From Chloroflexota bacterium (lineage in GTDB: Bacteria > Chloroflexota > Limnocylindria > P2-11E): a stretch of DNA of 64,000 bases. Each line of letters starts with the position of its first letter. Positions within the stretch are counted from its first letter, which is position 1. Location: NCBI GenBank assembly GCA_005881885.1, contig VBDX01000134.1, positions 4,534 through 68,533 on the forward strand. The letters are read 5' to 3'. Below, piece by piece: positions 52,143 through 59,688 of the stretch. The position numbers were made by a program, and so were the translations under genes. A model generated the notes under the pieces. It had not been told where the DNA came from. It worked only from the letters and a program-made list of their open reading frames with translations, and did not search any database.

Positions 52143-52334
52143 TCAGCACAGACACCCAGCGGGTGTCCGGATTCCGAGCACGGCATCGAGGGAGATACGC
52201 CAGGACCTGCAATCGCGGGGATCACCGTGACATCTGCGTTACGGCGGGGATCAGCATTAATGGCGCCAGCGAAAAGGCACAGGAACTGCGTATGCGAGAG
52301 ACGTGGCAAACGAGGAACGGCGGAGCGCCGAGCG

Positions 52335-52622
52335 ATGAGCTGGATCGATCAGCTCATCCAGCATCTCGAGCAGGTCACCTGCAGCGGCTGCGGGGAGTAC
52401 TACCACGGCGGGGACATCGCGGCCGTAGTCACCGAGCCGTCACGCCTCATCGTGCGGTTGCGCTGCCGATCATGTGGACAGGACGGCATCGCAATCCTCG
52501 ACTTCGGGACGAAGCCGGTTGCTCCTGAGCCCATTACCGCCGACGACGTGCTCGACACGCACGACCTACTGGCGCGTGCGAGCGGACCGCCCACAGAGCT
52601 TTTCCCGGCGCTGGCGATCTAG
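52335..52622 (+). CDS. Small zinc-ribbon protein
   Basis: CSGCGEYY...CRSCGQ. Start at MSWIDQ. The listed ORF begins further upstream. Confidence 0.4.
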   Translation: MSWIDQLIQHLEQVTCSGCGEYYHGGDIAAVVTEPSRLIVRLRCRSCGQDGIAILDFGTKPVAPEPITADDVLDTHDLLARASGPPTELFPALAI

Positions 52623-52909: not shown

Positions 52910-53305
52910 GTGATGTCGACGATCGTCCACTACGAGTGCCGCAACCCAGGTCACCTTCGCGGAGGATCGCGCCGCGGGATCGGTGGGACCGTCATTCACC
53001 ATGGATCGGTCGGCTATTGCGACGGGGTCAACGTCGACGGTGCCCATCGGTGGGTCCCGACCGGCGGGGTGCCGATCGAATACCTCTACGACGGCTCGCC
53101 GACATTCGACGGCCCGGGCACGTACCGCGCGAGCGACGGAGCGCTCGTGCACGTTCGCCCTGCGGCCAGCGGCAAGCTGCTGTTCGAGGTCGACGGGGGA
53201 CGATTCGCGGCACGGACCGATCTGCATGTCGGTGTGAAGCTTTCGGACGATCCTGACTGGCCCGATCCCGAGCCGGTCCGGATGGCGCTCCTGCACGCGG
53301 ACTAG
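52910..53305 (+). CDS. Hypothetical protein (131 aa)
   Basis: GGGGAGG RBS upstream. High GC3. No recognised domain. Confidence 0.45.
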   Translation: MMSTIVHYECRNPGHLRGGSRRGIGGTVIHHGSVGYCDGVNVDGAHRWVPTGGVPIEYLYDGSPTFDGPGTYRASDGALVHVRPAASGKLLFEVDGGRFAARTDLHVGVKLSDDPDWPDPEPVRMALLHAD

Positions 53306-53426: not shown

Positions 53427-54572
53427 ATGTGGTCGGAAGAAGCTACCGTCATCCAGGAATCCGGACGCGATCTCACCGAGCTCAGCGCCATCGGTCCGTT
53501 CACCGCGAACTTCATCTCGCGATGGCTGAAGGATCGGCCCGAGGTACCCGCACCGCCGCCGATCCGAGACGGATTCATCACCTACGCCTCCGCGCGCGAG
53601 GTCACCAGAGTCCACGCCGAGTGGGTCGGCGCAGCGAAAGCGGACCATCAGATGCACACCGACGAGACTGACGGTAGCTCCACGATCGACGAGATGGCCG
53701 AGGCTGCGCGGGCTCTGGGGCGGGAACGAATCGCCATCACCGACCACTCCAGGACGCTACGCATCACGAACGGGATGGATGAAGCCCGTCTCGCGGCACA
53801 GGGCGACCGCGTCGACGCGGTCAACGCGCGCGGGGCGGGTCCGTGGGTCCTCAAGGGCATCGAGATGGACCTCACGCCTGAAGGCGCCGGCGACATGGAG
53901 CCCGCAGCGCTCGCGCGGCTCGACCTCGTGCTCGGCGCCTTCCACTCCAAGCTTCGTCTCCGTGACGACCAGACCGAGCGCTACTTCCGCGCGCTCGCGA
54001 ACCCCGACATACAGGTGCTGGCCCATCCGCGCGGGCGCGTCTACAACTTCCGTACGGGCCTCGTCTGCGACTGGGACCGCGTCGCCCGCCGGGCAAGCGA
54101 GACCGGCACGGTCCTCGAGATCGACGCTTATCCCGATCGCCAGGACCTCGACATCGAGCGCCTGCGCATCGTGGCGGCCGAAGGCGCCTGGATCTCTATT
54201 GGCACCGACGCTCACAGTCCCGGCGAGCTGGCGTTCCTCGAGATCGGGATCGCGGCGGCGATCCTCGCGGGCGTTCCCAGGGAAAGGGTGCTGAACCTGC
54301 TCTCCAATCGCGCATTCGCGGAGCGGGTCGGCCTCGTTCGTGCAGCAAAGGCCGCGAAGATTTCCGAAAGGGGCACGAACAGAGTGGCAGGTGGAAAGCG
54401 CGAGCGCATCGACACCACGCCGGGCAAGTCCGGTGGTTCTCGTTTCGTCCGGCGCGAGGCCGGCGGGAGATTCAGCACCGACCAAACGAGCGCAGGTCGG
54501 AGCGTCGCCCAGGACAAGCGAGTGAAGGCGAAGAACGCGGCGCCGAAAGGGATGAAGGATCGCGGCGACTAA
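53427..54572 (+). CDS. PolX-like protein: N-terminal HhH (8-kDa lyase-like) segment joined directly to a PHP phosphoesterase domain, no polymerase core. The conserved N-terminus continues in frame upstream to about 53238
   Basis: Upstream in-frame NRDIAELLALESERAEGRKQRALRRASRAALMW...LTELSAIGPFTANFISRWL resembles the PolX 8-kDa domain. PHP motifs ADHQMHTDETDGSST, ITDHS, GTDAH. Confidence 0.7.
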   Translation: MWSEEATVIQESGRDLTELSAIGPFTANFISRWLKDRPEVPAPPPIRDGFITYASAREVTRVHAEWVGAAKADHQMHTDETDGSSTIDEMAEAARALGRERIAITDHSRTLRITNGMDEARLAAQGDRVDAVNARGAGPWVLKGIEMDLTPEGAGDMEPAALARLDLVLGAFHSKLRLRDDQTERYFRALANPDIQVLAHPRGRVYNFRTGLVCDWDRVARRASETGTVLEIDAYPDRQDLDIERLRIVAAEGAWISIGTDAHSPGELAFLEIGIAAAILAGVPRERVLNLLSNRAFAERVGLVRAAKAAKISERGTNRVAGGKRERIDTTPGKSGGSRFVRREAGGRFSTDQTSAGRSVAQDKRVKAKNAAPKGMKDRGD

Positions 54573-54675
54573 GACCAAGGAGAAGGCGCGCTCCCTCCGC
54601 GAGTACACGCGCAAGCGCGACTTCGCGACCACAGACGAGCCTCGGGGCGTTCGAGCGCGGAGCTCTCCACGGCCG

Positions 54676-55185
54676 TTGTTCGTGGTCCAGAAGCACCGCG
54701 CGAGCGCTCTGCACTACGACTTTCGCCTAGAGGCCGGCGGCGTTCTCGTATCGTGGGCTGTCCCCAAGGGTCCATCGCCCGATCCAAAGGTCAAGCGTCT
54801 CGCGATGGCCGTGGAGGACCACCCGCTCGACTACGCGCGCTTCGAGGGTGTGATCCCCGAGGGCGAGTACGGCGGCGGTACGGTCATGGTCTGGGACATC
54901 GGGACGTACGAGCTCGAGGGCGATGAAAGCTTCGACGAGGCGCTTCGCAAGGGCCGGATCGTCTTCACGCTGAACGGCAAGAAGCTGAGGGGCGGGTGGG
55001 TCCTTGTCCACACGAGCGGCCGGCAGTGGCTCCTCATGAAGCGGACGGACCGGCACGCTTCCACGGTCGATGTGACCCGAGCGAAGCCGCGCTCGGTCCT
55101 CACCCGCCGGCTTCTCGCGGGGATCGCCCGCGACGAGGGCGGCGACGTAGCGAAGGCCGCGACCGGCGATCCCAGCGGTAGGTAG
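54676..55185 (+). CDS. ligD: Stand-alone LigD 3'-phosphoesterase (PE) domain protein
   Basis: FVVQKHRASALHYDFRLE...VSWAVPKGPS...GGGTVMVWDIGTY matches the LigD-PE consensus. Confidence 0.85.
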   Translation: MFVVQKHRASALHYDFRLEAGGVLVSWAVPKGPSPDPKVKRLAMAVEDHPLDYARFEGVIPEGEYGGGTVMVWDIGTYELEGDESFDEALRKGRIVFTLNGKKLRGGWVLVHTSGRQWLLMKRTDRHASTVDVTRAKPRSVLTRRLLAGIARDEGGDVAKAATGDPSGR

Positions 55186-55209: not shown

Positions 55210-56136
55210 GTGAAGCTCATCCGCCCAATGCTCGCGACGCTGTCGCCCAGCGTCGTGGAGGGGCCGGAATGGGTCTTCGAGGAAAAGTACGACGGCATCC
55301 GCGCACTCGCCGGCCGCGAACGCGGCCGCGTGAAGATGTGGTCGCGGATGCTGCAGGACCTGACCGCCGGGTTCCCCCACGTCGCCCTGGCGGTGGCCGC
55401 GCTACCCGGCGGGGACCTTCTGCTCGACGGTGAGCTCGTGGCGCTTGACGCGAAAGGAGTCTCGCGCTTCCAGCTGTTGCAGCGACGCGGCGCTGCCGGG
55501 GCTTCGCCCACGAGGTACGCGGTGTTCGACCTGCTCGAGCTCGAGGGCCGAACGCTCATACGACGCCCGCTCGGCGAGCGCCGCTCCGCGCTCGAGCGTT
55601 TCATCGGCCTGCGGACCGAGCCGTTCTTCGTTTCCCGCCGGCTCGTCCGAGATGGGAAGGCCGCGTACCGCGAGGCCAAGCGCCTCGGTTGGGAAGGCAT
55701 CATCGCGAAGGACGAGAGTTCGCCGTACGAGCCAGGCACGCGGTCGCGCTACTGGCGCAAGGTCAAGGTGCGAAAGGAGTCCGAGTTCGTGATCGGCGGA
55801 TTCACCGCGCCTCAGGGCGGCAGGCAGCATCTTGGCGCTCTCCTCGTCGGGCTCTACGACGGACGGAGGCTGCGCTTTGTCGGCAAGGTCGGCACCGGCT
55901 TCACGCAGCAGACGCTGGACATCCTCGCCGCGAAGCTGGACCGCCTTCGAACCGAGCGTCCGCCTTTCGATCCGCCGCCACGCATACGCGACGCGACCTG
56001 GGTCCGGCCGAAGCTCGTCGCGCAGCTCGCATATGCCGAGTGGACCGCTGACGGCAAGCTGCGCCAACCGGCGTTCCTCGGCCTTCGCACCGATAAGCAC
56101 CCGGCGGAGGTCACCTGGAGCCAGCGTGAGCGCTAG
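55210..56136 (+). CDS. ligD: Stand-alone ATP-dependent DNA ligase domain protein (LigD ligase module)
   Basis: EEKYDGIRA (KxDG adenylation motif I), plus motifs III-V and an OB-fold region. Confidence 0.85.
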   Translation: MKLIRPMLATLSPSVVEGPEWVFEEKYDGIRALAGRERGRVKMWSRMLQDLTAGFPHVALAVAALPGGDLLLDGELVALDAKGVSRFQLLQRRGAAGASPTRYAVFDLLELEGRTLIRRPLGERRSALERFIGLRTEPFFVSRRLVRDGKAAYREAKRLGWEGIIAKDESSPYEPGTRSRYWRKVKVRKESEFVIGGFTAPQGGRQHLGALLVGLYDGRRLRFVGKVGTGFTQQTLDILAAKLDRLRTERPPFDPPPRIRDATWVRPKLVAQLAYAEWTADGKLRQPAFLGLRTDKHPAEVTWSQRER

Positions 56137-57013
56137 CGCGGGGAAGATCGCCGGCGTCGCGATCAGCAACCCCGACAAAGTGTGGTGGCCCGACGACGGC
56201 ATCACCAAGGCCGACGTCGCCCGCTTCTACGACGGCATGTGGTCGCGTCTTCTGCCGTGGCTGCGCGACCGGCCGCTCACCGGCGAGCGGTGCCCCGACG
56301 GCATGCTCGGCAGCTGTTTCTATCAAAAGGACTTCCCCGAGGACCGCGCGCCCGCCGGTCCACGTCTGGTCCTCCAGGCGACGAGCACGGGGAAGGACGT
56401 CCGCTACATCGTCGGCGGCTCGCGCGCGACGCTCATCGGGATGGTGAATCTCGGGTGCATCGCGATCCACGTCATGACCTCGCGCGCCTCGCGCATGGAC
56501 GAGGTGGACTGGCTCGCCTTCGACATGGATCCGCAGACCGGCGAGTTCGCCGATGCGGCGCGCGCGGGACTCGCGCTCCGAACGGTGCTCGACGAGGTCG
56601 GCCTCGTCTCCTACCCAAAGACTTCGGGAAGCCGAGGGCTCCACATCTTCTGCCCGCTCCGCGCTGGCGTCTCACCGCAGCGTGCCGCCGCGGTGGCCGT
56701 ATCGCTCGGCCAGGAGCTCGCACGCCGCGAGCCTGACCTCGTGACGGTCGAGTTCTCCAAGAGCAAGCGGGGTGCGCGGGTCTTCGCCGACGCGATGCGG
56801 AACGCGTACGGGCAGACCATCGTCGGTCCGTACAGCGTCCGCCGCCGGCCAAAGGCGCCGGTCTCGACGCCGCTCGCGTGGGACGAGGTCACGACCCGGC
56901 TCGACCCGGCGTCATTCAATTTGCGAACGTTCGAGCGCCGCATCGCGCGATCCGATCCGTGGGCCGATTTCTGGCGGCGCCGGCAGTCGGTACCTCGTCG
57001 CATCGCGACGTGA
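56126..57013 (+). CDS. ligD: Stand-alone NHEJ polymerase/primase domain protein (LigD PolDom)
   Basis: KTSGSRGLHI and SKSKRGARVFAD motifs of the archaeo-eukaryotic-primase-like LigD Pol domain. GTG start overlaps the ligase stop by 11 nt. Confidence 0.85.
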   Translation: MSASAGKIAGVAISNPDKVWWPDDGITKADVARFYDGMWSRLLPWLRDRPLTGERCPDGMLGSCFYQKDFPEDRAPAGPRLVLQATSTGKDVRYIVGGSRATLIGMVNLGCIAIHVMTSRASRMDEVDWLAFDMDPQTGEFADAARAGLALRTVLDEVGLVSYPKTSGSRGLHIFCPLRAGVSPQRAAAVAVSLGQELARREPDLVTVEFSKSKRGARVFADAMRNAYGQTIVGPYSVRRRPKAPVSTPLAWDEVTTRLDPASFNLRTFERRIARSDPWADFWRRRQSVPRRIAT

Positions 57014-58299
57014 GCAGGGCGGAGGAGCTCGCCAAGGAGAAGCAGCCGATCAAGAAGGCGGCTTTCCTCCTCGGCCCGGGTTTCATCACGGGAGCCGCGG
57101 ACGATGACCCAAGCGGCATCGGGACGTACGCCGTGGCTGGTGCGTCTCTCGGCCTCGCGACGCTCTGGACCGCCCTCCTGACATTCCCGTTCATGGCGGC
57201 GGTCCAGAACATCTGCGCGCAGCTCGGCCAGGTCTCCGGAACGGGCCTCGCCGGCATCCTCAAGGAGCACTACCCGCGCTGGGTGCTTTACCCGGCGGTC
57301 GCGCTCGTGGTGATCGCGAACGTCGTGAACGTCGGGGCTGACCTCGGTGCGATCGCAGATGCAGCGGGCATCGTCGTCGGGATGCCGGTCCCATGGCTCG
57401 TGGTACCGATCGCGCTCGGCCTCGTTGCGCTGCAGATCTTCGCGCGCTTTCGAGCGATCGAGCGCACCTTCAAGTTCCTGACCCTGGCGCTGCTCGCGTA
57501 TGTGGTCGACGCGTTCCTCGTGCATCCGTCGCTGGGCGAGACGCTTCGCGCCACGATCGTGCCGACCATCGCGTTCGACCATGACTACATCGCGGTGCTC
57601 GTGGCGATCTTGGGCACGACGATCTCGCCGTACTTGTTCTTCTGGCAAACGAGCCTCGAGGTCGAGGAGGAAAAGTCCGCCGGCAGGCGCACGCGAGGGG
57701 AGCGGCGTGGCGCGTCACCATTCGAGTTGCGCGTCGCCACGATCGACGTGACCGTCGGGATGTTCGTCTCGAACCTCGTGATGTATTTCATCATCCTCGC
57801 GACTGCCCTGACGCTGAACGCCGGCGGAATCTGGAACATCGACACGGGCGCAGACGCCGCGCAAGCGCTCCGTCCGCTCGCGGGGGACCTCGCGGGCCTG
57901 ATCTTCGCGATCGGCATGATCGGCACCGGTCTTCTCGCGGTACCGGTGCTCGCGGGCGCATCCGCCTATGCCGTTTCAGAGACGTTCGGTTGGCGCGAAG
58001 GGCTCGACGAGAACTGGCATCGGGCGAGGCCGTTCTACGGCGTCGTCGCGATCGCGACGATCGTCGGACTCGCGATTCCATTCTCTGGGGTCAAGCCGAT
58101 CGACGCGCTCTTCGTCACCTCCATCCTGAACGGGATTGCGGCGCCACCACTCCTCGTCGTGATCATGCTCGCCGCGAGGAACACAAAGGTCATGGGCGAT
58201 CAGACCATCGGCACGGTCCTCACTACGCTCGGCTGGATCGTCACCGTCGCGATGTTCGCCGCCCTCGCCGGCCTCGTTCTCACCTCATTCGCAGGGTGA
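57009..58299 (+). CDS. mntH: NRAMP-family divalent metal (Mn2+) transporter
   Basis: LGPGFITGAADDDPSGIGTYAVAGA NRAMP signature and 11 predicted TM helices. GTG start overlaps the LigD-Pol stop (GTGA). Confidence 0.85.
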
Positions 58300-58372
58300 A
58301 CGTGCCTGACGACACATTCGCGGTGTGCGCCGACGCACCCGCGCGGCGATCCGGGTGCCCGACGCTTTCGGT

Positions 58373-59020
58373 ATGTCGTCCCGGATCGCTCGGCTCATCG
58401 TGCGCGGCCTCTTCGCGGCGCTCTTCCGGATCCGCCGAAGCGGCGATCTCCCCGCGCACGGCCCGCTCATCGTCGTCGCGAACCATCAGGGCTGGGCGGA
58501 CGGCTTCCTTCTGGCTGCCGCGTTCCCGCTCGCGGCCCCCATCCGCCTTCTCGGAGATCGCGACGGCACGATGGGCGTCTGGTGGCATCGCGCGATCCTG
58601 CGTCTGGTTGGGCTCATCATTCCCATCGATCGCGGGGCGGCGGGCGCGGATCGCGGCGCGATCAAGGCGACGTTTGCCGCTCTTGCGCGCGGAGAGATCG
58701 TCGTCGTCTTCGCCGAAGGCCGCGTGTCTCGCGCGGAGTCGGCGCTCGGGCCGTTCGCTCGCGGGGTGGGCTACCTCGCGCTGCGATCGGGAGCCCCGGT
58801 CCTTCCGGTCTGGCTCAGTGGGACGGCAGAGCTCTATCTGGGCCGGGATCTCGCGCTCATCGCGGGCCGGCCGCGGTCCGTCGCGGCGGCGACGCCGACG
58901 AAGGAGCGGACGTCCAAGCTCGCGCGCGTGCTTCATGACGATCTGGCTTCGCTCACACCCTTGTGGCGGGATCCCGAGCCGGCCGAAAAGCGCTGGCGCT
59001 GGCTGACGGAGCTTTTCTAG
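58373..59020 (+). CDS. plsC: 1-acyl-sn-glycerol-3-phosphate acyltransferase
   Basis: VANHQGWADG (HX4D), FAEGRVSR and GAPVLPV motifs. Confidence 0.75.
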   Translation: MSSRIARLIVRGLFAALFRIRRSGDLPAHGPLIVVANHQGWADGFLLAAAFPLAAPIRLLGDRDGTMGVWWHRAILRLVGLIIPIDRGAAGADRGAIKATFAALARGEIVVVFAEGRVSRAESALGPFARGVGYLALRSGAPVLPVWLSGTAELYLGRDLALIAGRPRSVAAATPTKERTSKLARVLHDDLASLTPLWRDPEPAEKRWRWLTELF

Positions 59021-59688
59021 GCGCGGATCTCCCGCAGAAGCGAGCTCTCGTCGAGCACGCGGATGTTCCGGCGACCCACCTCGATCAAACCGCGCCGCTC
59101 GAAGTCGGCGAGTAGCTTGTTCACCGTCATGCGCGTAGAGCCGATCGCGGCCGCGAGATCGTCCTGGGTCAGGGGCATCTTCCCGGCTCGCCCGACCTCC
59201 ACGAGGTACTTGGCGAGTCGGCTCGCGACGTCGAGGAAGGCGAGGTCGCCGACCTGGGACTCGAGCTTCCGGATCGTCCGCGTAAGGCGCTCGAACATGT
59301 AGCGGCGCGCGCCCTCGTTGCGACCGAGCACGCGGAGCGCGCCATCGCGCGCGATCTGGAGTGCGGTCGTCGCCACGACGCACACCGCGGTCCCGTCGCG
59401 CGGCCCCTGTTCGAATAGAGCGAGCTCGCCGAAGAACTCGCCCCGCCGATGCAGTGACACCAGAAGCTCCCGCCCGTTCTCGTCAAGAAGGAGCACCTTC
59501 ACCAGACCATCGACGACCACGTAGGCGTGCGCGGCCGGATCGCCCTGGTGGTACACAACTTCGTCGGCCTTGAACTTGCGCAAGGCCATCGAGTTGCCGA
59601 GGTCAAGGCGATCGGCGTCCGGAAGGACCTCGAGTGGGAGCACGTCACCGAGCGTGCCGGCGATCGCGAGTATCTCCTCCGGCCGCAT
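59017..59688 (-). CDS. Crp/Fnr-family transcriptional regulator
   Basis: cNMP-binding domain (FGELALF) and C-terminal HTH (TQDDLAAAIGSTRMTVNKLL). Confidence 0.8.
   Translation of the reverse strand: MRPEEILAIAGTLGDVLPLEVLPDADRLDLGNSMALRKFKADEVVYHQGDPAAHAYVVVDGLVKVLLLDENGRELLVSLHRRGEFFGELALFEQGPRDGTAVCVVATTALQIARDGALRVLGRNEGARRYMFERLTRTIRKLESQVGDLAFLDVASRLAKYLVEVGRAGKMPLTQDDLAAAIGSTRMTVNKLLADFERRGLIEVGRRNIRVLDESSLLREIRA

What the first reader, a model, noticed from the sequence alone, without database searches (positions are those of the whole stretch)
56126..58299. mntH start overlaps the LigD-Pol stop (GTGA), apparently coupling Mn2+ uptake to Mn2+-dependent NHEJ enzymes
The NRAMP transporter begins with GTG at 57009-57011, whose last two bases are the first two of the ligD-pol TGA. 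This is the same coupling geometry used throughout the window. LigD Pol and PE domains are well known to prefer Mn2+. Co-expression of a manganese importer with them would be a neat functional link that has not, to my knowledge, been pointed out.
Basis: inference. Interest (0 to 1): 0.55.

Follow-up and report, generated by a model that had tools for sequence, protein, structure and literature searches.

The report
LigD polymerase gene overlaps NRAMP-like transporter
In one group of soil Chloroflexota, a DNA-repair polymerase gene ends four bases inside the start of a metal-transporter gene, so the two are very probably made together; but the transporter is not a true manganese importer (MntH), and the pairing is found only in this group, so a repair-metal link is unproven.

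Summary
The overlap is real. An NTGA overlap is kept in all 15 related Ca. Limnocylindria loci that show the junction. None of these starts has a Shine-Dalgarno sequence. This fits co-transcription and termination-reinitiation coupling.

- The protein is not MntH. It scores 109 bits against a 430-bit cutoff and keeps 1 of the 5 Slc11 signature residues (DPSG / TTISPY instead of DPGN / AxxMPH).
- Its best solved relative is the Mg2+/Mn2+ uniporter EleNRMT. It belongs to a large uncharacterised NRAMP-related subfamily, so Mn2+ transport is possible but unassigned.
- The adjacency is confined to one Limnocylindria clade, where the whole ~10-gene block is syntenic. It is absent from 78 distant subfamily members, 4 loci of a sister Limnocylindria clade and 4 plasmids.
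- NTGA overlaps are routine here: 14 in the window.
- The gene row continues into a PlsC-like acyltransferase.
- No Ku gene, riboswitch or MntR/DtxR-like box was found.

Most likely this is a lineage-specific operon. Dedicated cofactor supply is a low-probability reading.

The parts
53427..54572 (+). Stand-alone PHP-domain protein, similar to the PHP exonuclease domain of PolX; first recognisable repair gene of the row
   Evidence: Pfam PHP hit. NCBIfam PRK07945 scores 192 bits, and the PolX model matches at positions 334-564 of 571. The gene is fragmentary or absent in 5 of 11 relatives.
54559..55185 (+). LigD 3'-phosphoesterase (PE) as a separate gene. The first canonical start is TTG 54676, but the conserved N-terminus begins upstream, possibly at ATC 54559.
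   Evidence: PF13298 scores 149 bits. TIGR02777 scores 186 bits for the ORF from 54676 (model positions 29-155) and 210 bits for the ORF from 54559 (model positions 1-155). The upstream stretch is conserved as coding, with indels in multiples of 3.
55210..56136 (+). LigD ATP-dependent ligase domain as a separate gene
   Evidence: TIGR02779 scores 303 bits against a 227.75-bit cutoff; PF01068 and PF04679 also match.
56126..57013 (+). LigD primase-polymerase (Pol) as a separate gene. GTG start lies 11 nt inside the ligase gene; stop is TGA 57011-57013.
   Evidence: PF21686 scores 262 bits. TIGR02778 scores 221 bits against a 214.7-bit cutoff. The Shine-Dalgarno duplex energy is -10.0 kcal/mol. 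The junction with the ligase gene is conserved in 12 of 13 relatives.
57010..57013 (+). GTGA overlap: the transporter start codon GTG 57010-57012 shares TG with the Pol stop TGA 57011-57013
   Evidence: Read directly from the sequence. An NTGA overlap is present in 16 of 16 loci. No Shine-Dalgarno sequence precedes the start in 16 of 16 loci.
57010..58299 (+). NRAMP-related divalent-cation transporter (429 aa) of the DPSG / GTTISPY subfamily; not a canonical MntH
   Evidence: PF01566 scores 259.5 bits. MntH model NF001923 scores 109 bits against a 430-bit cutoff. The best PDB match is 7QIA EleNRMT. The subfamily signature was seen.
58325..59020 (+). PlsC-like acyltransferase, same strand, 25 nt downstream; probably the last gene of the row
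   Evidence: PF01553 scores 74 bits. It is adjacent in all relatives that show this side, with a variable short gap.
59017..59688 (-). CRP/FNR-family regulator, convergent with the row and marking its 3' end
   Evidence: cNMP_binding and HTH_Crp_2 domains match. The gene is syntenic in relatives.

Best explanation
This is a lineage-specific operon in one clade of soil Ca. Limnocylindria (Chloroflexota). The gene row is (PHP)-PE-Lig-Pol-transporter-acyltransferase. The transporter gene has no Shine-Dalgarno sequence, and its start codon sits on the Pol stop codon. Ribosomes finishing Pol most likely reinitiate on it, which ties transporter output to Pol translation. The transporter is an NRAMP-related protein of the outgroup/NRMT side of PF01566. 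It lacks the Asn, Ala, Met and His residues that make MntH a selective, proton-coupled Mn2+/Fe2+ importer. It probably moves Mg2+ and/or Mn2+. The pairing with LigD genes most likely reflects shared transcription in this lineage, through operon accretion or possibly a common stress or dormancy regulon. It is probably not a dedicated, general Mn2+-supply device for end joining. What is shown: the overlap, its conservation, the family assignments and the restricted distribution. What is inferred: co-transcription, reinitiation coupling and the substrate.
For: The overlap is read directly from the sequence. An NTGA overlap is present in 16 of 16 loci, and two of them have shifted junctions that are still ATGA. 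The other junctions of the row are also overlapped: PE>Lig is NTGA in 8 of 11, and Lig>Pol overlaps by 11 nt in 12 of 13. Anti-SD duplex energies before the transporter start are -2.9 kcal/mol or weaker in all 16 loci, against a background mean of -2.9, -10.0 for Pol and -7.4 for Lig. No sigma-70-like promoter was found between 52 and 60 kb, and no terminator-like site lies at the junction. The signature DxxG-TxxS compares with NRMT DxxG-TxxA/T and canonical DxxN-A/CxxM (PMC8806188). The distribution is restricted: 0 of 78 distant homologues, of which 56 have at least 900 nt of upstream sequence, carry LigD, PHP or Ku nearby, and their neighbours are not conserved. A sister Limnocylindria clade has the gene next to an MgtE_N/CBS protein plus a second Nramp gene instead. 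Four plasmid contexts lack LigD and Ku. As a sensitivity control, the window Pol finds LigD on 622 plasmids at 29-40% identity. NTGA junctions are routine, with 14 in the window. An unrelated acyltransferase shares the row.
Against: There are no transcript data, so an internal promoter inside the 3' end of Pol cannot be excluded, and Chloroflexota promoters may not fit the sigma-70 scan. The PHP and acyltransferase starts also lack Shine-Dalgarno sequences, so a missing SD is not specific to coupled genes here. All loci with the pairing are syntenic over about 10 kb, so conservation of adjacency alone cannot separate selection from shared ancestry. The persistence of NTGA through junction shifts, and the Mn2+ requirement of PE and Pol, leave room for a real functional link.
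Confidence: 0.6

Rival explanations
1. Dedicated cofactor supply. The transporter imports Mn2+, or Mg2+, specifically to load the Mn2+-dependent PE, Pol and PHP enzymes. Stoichiometric co-translation is selected for that reason.
For: PE requires Mn and POL was crystallised with Mn (PMC8656161). NRMT/outgroup relatives move Mn2+: EleNRMT has a Km of about 119 uM (PMC8806188), and the A. capsulatum NrmT rescues a Mn-uptake mutant (PMC4072509). The overlap is conserved 16 of 16, including re-created ATGA at shifted junctions. PHP has been lost in several relatives, but PE-Lig-Pol-transporter stays intact.
Against: The pairing is absent from every other lineage sampled. The protein lacks the Mn-selective Met and Asn residues. 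A membrane importer changes the whole cytoplasmic metal pool, so physical or stoichiometric coupling to one enzyme has no obvious advantage. The row also contains an acyltransferase. No Mn-responsive element was found.
Confidence: 0.2
2. Independent expression. The transporter and acyltransferase are transcribed from their own promoter inside the Pol 3' end, and the 4-nt overlap is only genome compaction with no regulatory meaning.
For: NTGA overlaps are common in this genome. The last ~25 nt of Pol are poorly conserved, and upstream in-frame starts exist in some loci. The transporter occurs as a stand-alone gene elsewhere.
Against: No promoter-like site was found, and no inverted repeat or operator lies in 56700-57100. 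None of the 16 loci has a Shine-Dalgarno sequence to support independent initiation. There is no intergenic space.
Confidence: 0.15
3. Mis-called start. The transporter really starts elsewhere (upstream GTG 56959 or 56878, or downstream ATG 57193), so there is no GTGA coupling.
For: Some database homologues are called 17 aa longer, at 446 aa, which corresponds to the -51 start. In-frame GTGs exist at 56878 and 56959 in the window.
Against: The -51 and -132 starts are missing in L006, L007 and L009, whereas the overlapping start is universal. The codon-bias switch between frames falls at about 56940-57000. ATG 57193 would delete TM1, which carries the invariant Asp33.
Confidence: 0.05

Closest known systems
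NRMT, NRAMP-related Mg2+ transporters (EleNRMT, PDB 7QIA; C. acetobutylicum NrmT)
   Same: Both belong to PF01566 and share the LeuT-type fold family. EleNRMT is the best solved-structure match (176 bits, about 33% identity). TM1 has DxxG in both, with Gly replacing the metal-binding Asn. TM6 starts with Thr in both, and both lack the Met and the proton-pathway His.
   Different: Identity is only about 33%. TM1 is DPSG rather than DAGG. TM6 is TxxS-P-Y rather than TxxA/T-P-W. The window protein has a subfamily-specific WQxSxEVEE stretch after TM6. It has no adjacent MgtE_N fragment and no M-box riboswitch. True NRMT-signature paralogues (NDAGG / GTTITPY) exist separately in Limnocylindria.
Canonical MntH / Slc11 (DraNramp, EcoDMT, ScaDMT)
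   Same: Same Pfam family. The TM1 Asp is conserved (Asp33). Both are predicted importers of divalent cations.
   Different: Only 1 of the 5 Slc11 signature residues is kept: Asp is present; Asn is replaced by Gly36, Ala by Thr203, Met by Ser206 and His by Tyr208 (PMC9606685). The protein scores 109 bits against the 430-bit NF001923 cutoff and 76 bits against the 272.5-bit TIGR01197 cutoff. It scores 73 bits to DraNramp.
A. capsulatum ACP_2977, an NrmT-branch protein that rescues Mn2+ uptake (Shin et al. 2014)
   Same: It is an NRAMP-related protein that is not MntH and has no riboswitch. It shows that this side of the family can carry Mn2+.
   Different: ACP_2977 sits downstream of an MgtE cytoplasmic-domain fragment, and the window gene does not.
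Cellier's 'Slc11 outgroup' within PF01566
   Same: [quoted passage not shown] That description fits the window protein.
   Different: Membership could not be tested because the outgroup sequences were not on hand.
Split or stand-alone LigD gene sets, and PolX/PHP-LigD operons
   Same: Separate PE, Lig and Pol genes in one row with a PHP exonuclease gene upstream. A PolX-LigD operon association is reported in Alphaproteobacteria (PMC9226535). Stand-alone archaeal Lig/Pol/PE/Ku operons are known (own knowledge, Methanocella paludicola).
   Different: No Ku gene lies in the 64-kb window or in the flanks of relatives. A transporter and an acyltransferase are appended to the row. No such arrangement was found in the literature search.
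Termination-reinitiation translational coupling at ATGA/GTGA overlaps
   Same: The 4-nt overlap geometry is the same, and the downstream gene has no Shine-Dalgarno sequence. This is a common operon feature (own knowledge).
   Different: Nothing distinguishes this case mechanistically. Fourteen such junctions occur in the window.

Membership tests
MntH / Slc11 (H+-coupled Mn2+/Fe2+ importer) | TM1 DPGN (DxxN) metal-binding motif | tested here: not met
   The window has D33-P-S-G36; Asn is replaced by Gly (alignment to DraNramp; signature definition in PMC8806188).
MntH / Slc11 (H+-coupled Mn2+/Fe2+ importer) | TM6 A/CxxM-P-H motif (Met as soft ligand, His in the proton pathway) | tested here: not met
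   The window has T203-T-I-S206-P-Y208. PMC9606685 lists Asp, Asn, Ala, Met and His as the co-evolved Slc11 sites.
MntH / Slc11 (H+-coupled Mn2+/Fe2+ importer) | Score at or above the curated NCBIfam cutoffs (NF001923 430 bits; TIGR01197 272.5 bits; NF037982 50 bits) | tested here: not met
   The scores are 109.3, 76.0 and 40.2 bits.
MntH / Slc11 (H+-coupled Mn2+/Fe2+ importer) | Mn-responsive control (MntR/DtxR operator or yybP-ykoY riboswitch) | tested here: inconclusive
   No Rfam family other than one tRNA was found in the window. The best matches to recalled MntR/DtxR consensus sequences are no better than in shuffled sequence, and none lies near the cluster. The consensus sequences are approximate and come from other phyla.
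NRMT (NRAMP-related Mg2+ transporter) | DxxG in TM1 | tested here: met
   The motif is DPSG.
NRMT (NRAMP-related Mg2+ transporter) | TxxA/T in TM6 | tested here: inconclusive
   The window has TxxS. Thr is at the first position, but Ser stands where Ala or Thr is expected. Ser is the subfamily norm: TTISPY occurs in 83 of 110 recognisable motifs.
NRMT (NRAMP-related Mg2+ transporter) | Closer to characterised NRMTs than to MntH | tested here: met
   The protein scores 176 bits to EleNRMT and 73 bits to DraNramp. Identity is only about 33%, however, whereas Limnocylindria NDAGG-type paralogues are 43-45% identical to EleNRMT.
NRMT (NRAMP-related Mg2+ transporter) | Association with an MgtE cytoplasmic-domain fragment and/or an M-box riboswitch | tested here: not met
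   No M-box was found, and no MgtE_N gene lies between 47 and 64 kb. In the sister clade the homologue lies beside, but is not itself part of, an MgtE_N/CBS plus Nramp pair.
NRMT (NRAMP-related Mg2+ transporter) | Mg2+ transport, not coupled to H+ | not testable with these tools
   This needs complementation or proteoliposome assays.
Pfam Nramp (PF01566) | Score above the gathering threshold over the full domain | tested here: met
   The protein scores 259.5 bits against a 29.8-bit threshold, covering model positions 2-355 of 357.
LigD primase-polymerase domain | TIGR02778 and PF21686 above cutoff | tested here: met
   The scores are 221 bits against 214.7 and 262 bits against 27.4.
Bacterial NHEJ system (Ku + LigD) | A Ku gene accompanying the LigD functions | tested here: not met
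   tblastn with M. tuberculosis Ku found nothing better than E=1.5 in the window or in the 16 loci fetched by then (L001-L016, 14 of them Limnocylindria). The Ku sequence was recalled from memory and validated as Ku by Pfam at 180 bits. The rest of the genome is not available, so Ku may be encoded elsewhere.
Translationally coupled operon pair | Start codon overlapping the upstream stop, conserved, with no Shine-Dalgarno sequence of its own | tested here: met
   
Translationally coupled operon pair | Co-transcription, and dependence of downstream translation on upstream translation | not testable with these tools
   This needs transcript mapping and reporter fusions.

The most novel reading that the evidence does not exclude
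A member of an uncharacterised NRAMP-related subfamily (DPSG / TxxS-P-Y) has been recruited into a split-LigD repair operon. It is co-translated with the polymerase to supply the Mn2+ (or Mg2+) that PE, Pol and the PHP exonuclease need during dormancy or desiccation. This would be a 'cofactor supply' gene built into a DNA end-repair module that has no Ku gene nearby.
Probability: 0.12. Interest if true: 0.6.

Novelty: new member of a known kind. Interest (0 to 1): 0.3.

Why it matters
If the link were functional, it would be a first example of a DNA-repair operon carrying its own metal-cofactor importer. It would also give a physiological handle on a large, uncharacterised branch of the NRAMP family, which has about 1000 representatives at 50% clustering with E<1e-30. 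As it stands, the practical value is corrective. The gene should not be annotated as mntH, its substrate is open between Mg2+ and Mn2+, and the LigD pairing is a local feature of one soil Chloroflexota clade rather than a general rule.

Tried and rejected
- Alternative start codons for the transporter were rejected. The starts at 56878 and 56959 are not conserved, and 57193 would delete TM1.
- A promoter and terminator scan of 52-60 kb found no sigma-70-like site and nothing at the junction.
- An Rfam scan of the whole window found only a tRNA, with no M-box or Mn riboswitch.
- A search for MntR/DtxR/IdeR consensus sequences recalled from memory gave best matches no better than shuffles, and none near the cluster.
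- An inverted-repeat search in 52.1-54.7 kb and 56.7-57.1 kb found no operator-like palindrome in the intergenic parts.
- No Ku was found in the window or flanks.
- Pfam scans of neighbouring ORFs between 47 and 64 kb found no further repair or metal genes.
- A +1 frameshift from PHP into PE was considered as the explanation for the missing PE start. It was judged unlikely because no codon between the PE-frame TGA and the PHP stop can re-pair in the +1 frame (reasoning).
- Structure prediction was not run, because the sequence match to 7QIA already places the fold.
- The only plasmid seen to carry both a subfamily member and a LigD (Rhizobium sp. CB3090) has them about 256 kb apart.
Full report
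**Observation**

The window is high-GC (67.6%). By the names attached to its closest protein and genome matches, it comes from Candidatus Limnocylindria, Chloroflexota. The sequence at 57005-57016 reads GCGACGTGAGCA. The GTG is at 57010-57012 and the LigD-Pol stop TGA is at 57011-57013. Third-position GC switches from the Pol frame to the transporter frame at about 56940-57000.

**Gene row**

All genes below are on the + strand.
- PHP-domain protein, 53427-54572.
- LigD-PE, first canonical start at 54676, ending at 55185.
- LigD ligase, 55210-56136.
- LigD-Pol, 56126-57013.
- NRAMP-like transporter, 57010-58299.
- PlsC-like acyltransferase, 58325-59020.
A convergent CRP-family regulator on the minus strand (59017-59688) ends the row. 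Upstream lie a radical-SAM gene and two conserved small ORFs with no family assignment.

**Is the start real, and is the overlap conserved?**

A genome scan returned 14 Limnocylindria loci from different species-level genomes. A metagenome scan added two more. Fifteen of these 16 show the Pol-transporter junction; L002 begins inside the transporter gene. In the window and in those 15 loci the transporter start overlaps the Pol stop as NTGA. Counting the window, the forms are ATGA x12, GTGA x3 and TTGA x1. In L005 and L006 the junction has moved by one and four codons and is still ATGA. The alternative upstream in-frame starts seen in the window are missing in L006, L007 and L009. ATG 57193 would remove TM1. 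Most database homologues are called at 429 aa.

The neighbouring junctions are equally tight.
- PE>Lig is NTGA in 8 of 11.
- Lig>Pol is an 11-nt overlap in 12 of 13.
- Transporter>acyltransferase has a short, variable gap.

None of the 16 transporter starts has a Shine-Dalgarno sequence. Duplex energies are -2.9 kcal/mol or weaker, against a background mean of -2.9, -10.0 for Pol and -7.4 for Lig. No sigma-70-like promoter lies between 52 and 60 kb, and no terminator-like site lies at the junction. These facts fit co-transcription and termination-reinitiation coupling. Both are inferred, not shown.

The geometry itself is routine in this genome. Fourteen NTGA junctions between codon-bias-supported ORFs occur in the window.

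**What the transporter is**

It is a full-length PF01566 protein (259.5 bits). It falls far below every curated MntH/Nramp cutoff: 109 against 430, 76 against 272.5 and 40 against 50 bits. Its best solved relative is EleNRMT (7QIA, 176 bits). DraNramp MntH scores 73 bits.

The residue-by-residue alignment shows D33-P-S-G36 in TM1 and T203-T-I-S206-P-Y208 in TM6. Published signatures are as follows.
- Canonical transporters have DxxN plus A/CxxM. NRMTs have DxxG plus TxxA/T (PMC8806188).
- Asp, Asn, Ala, Met and His are the co-evolved sites that define Slc11 (PMC9606685).

The window protein keeps only the Asp. A search of 1.84 billion cluster representatives found 1001 relatives at E<1e-30. 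Most of the top 150 share DPSG and TTISPY. This is therefore a large, coherent subfamily.

Limnocylindria also encode separate NDAGG / GTTITPY proteins. These are 43-45% identical to EleNRMT and about 33% identical to the window protein. The window protein is thus a sister subfamily rather than an NRMT proper. It may be the 'outgroup' that Cellier distinguishes from NRMT, but this could not be tested.

The substrate cannot be assigned.
- EleNRMT moves both Mg2+ and Mn2+ without proton coupling.
- An A. capsulatum NrmT-branch protein rescues Mn2+ uptake.
Mn2+ is possible, Mg2+ is at least as likely, and 'mntH' is the wrong label.

**Is the pairing conserved?**

Within the clade that has it, transporter identity to the window is 81-93%. 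There the whole block from MoxR and a trypsin-like protease to the CRP regulator is syntenic. Adjacency in these loci says little beyond shared ancestry. Outside that clade the pairing disappears.
- A metagenome scan with a subfamily alignment returned 78 loci at 45-56% identity. Fifty-six of them have at least 900 nt of upstream sequence. None has LigD-Pol, Lig, PE, PHP or Ku within up to 10 kb, and their neighbours are not conserved.
- In a sister Limnocylindria clade (63-67% identity, four loci) the gene lies beside an MgtE_N/CBS protein plus a second Nramp gene, with no LigD.
- The subfamily occurs on 129 plasmids. Four inspected contexts show ion-homeostasis or stress neighbours and no LigD or Ku. 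These neighbours include a VIT family protein, a KUP/HAK/KT potassium transporter, an MgtC/SapB family protein, a CBS-domain protein next to a second NRAMP gene, and a universal stress protein.
- As a sensitivity control, the window Pol detects LigD on 622 plasmids at 29-40% identity.

**Context of the repair genes**

The PE, Lig and Pol domains are separate genes that pass their equivalog-domain cutoffs. The upstream PHP protein resembles the PolX exonuclease domain. A PolX-LigD association is already described (PMC9226535).

No Ku was found in the window or in relatives' flanks. No metal riboswitch and no MntR/DtxR-like site above chance was found. A literature search for LigD, manganese and Nramp together returned only genome-inventory papers, none on gene adjacency.

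**Verdict**

The best explanation is a lineage-specific operon in which an NRAMP-related divalent-cation transporter and an acyltransferase are co-transcribed with split LigD genes, with the transporter translationally coupled to Pol (confidence about 0.6). A dedicated metal-supply role is attractive and not excluded (about 0.2 in its general form, about 0.12 in the specific novel form). Interest is modest at 0.3.

Noticed in passing
window 54556-54676 (PHP stop TAA 54570-54572; first canonical PE start TTG 54676): The PE gene has no ATG, GTG or TTG before its conserved N-terminus. The 100 nt upstream of TTG 54676 are conserved as coding in the PE frame (…TKERARSLREYKRKRDFAKTPEP…), with indels in multiples of 3. 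Extending the ORF to ATC 54559 raises the TIGR02777 score from 186 to 210 bits and completes model positions 1-155. Several relatives (L005, L009, L010, L018) have no canonical start at all. ATC is conserved in 10 of 11 loci and lies 7 nt after AAAGGG. This suggests AUC initiation or some form of recoding; a +1 frameshift from PHP looks unlikely.
   Followed up: partly
PHP gene: window 53427-54572; L005, L006, L009, L010, L011: The PHP exonuclease gene is fragmentary or missing in 5 of 11 relatives, while PE-Lig-Pol-transporter-acyltransferase stays intact. Its last ~30 nt are conserved even where the gene is gone, probably because they form the PE translation-initiation region.
   Followed up: partly
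L097 8356-10889; L098 9109-11645; L099 3853-6358; L100 1180-3685; L104 9744-12697: In a sister Limnocylindria clade and on a Mycolicibacterium plasmid, the DPSG-type gene lies near a pair made of an MgtE_N/CBS cytoplasmic protein and a second Nramp gene. That second gene carries the true NRMT signature (NDAGG / GTTITPY). This is the arrangement Shin et al. 2014 described for NrmT, and it places two NRAMP-related subfamilies side by side.
   Followed up: partly
window 57619-57669 (residues 204-220 of the transporter): The subfamily has a nearly invariant P-Y-L-F-F-W-Q-x-S-x-E-V-E-E stretch just after the TM6 binding-site motif. It is absent from EleNRMT (PWMMFFNQSNVVE). It may be a cytoplasmic acidic gate or metal site, and it is uncharacterised.
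   Followed up: no
window 52227-52622 and 52910-53305 (+): Two small ORFs of 131 aa each lie between the radical-SAM gene and PHP. They are conserved at 67-86% identity in the relatives but match no Pfam family. They are on the same strand as the repair row and may belong to it.
   Followed up: partly
L012 (DATLPP010000098.1) and L013 (DASPWX010000057.1): These contigs carry the Limnocylindria-type block at 82-83% identity and in full synteny. They are filed under MAGs named Candidatus Udaeobacter and Bathyarchaeia, which is probably mis-binning.
   Followed up: no
window 59017-59020: The acyltransferase (+) and the CRP-family regulator (-) converge and overlap by 4 nt at their stop codons. 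A second CRP paralogue follows in most relatives.
   Followed up: no
window 1-64000: No Ku gene was found anywhere in the window or within 8 kb of the cluster in relatives. The split LigD genes here are either served by a distant ku or act without Ku.
   Followed up: partly
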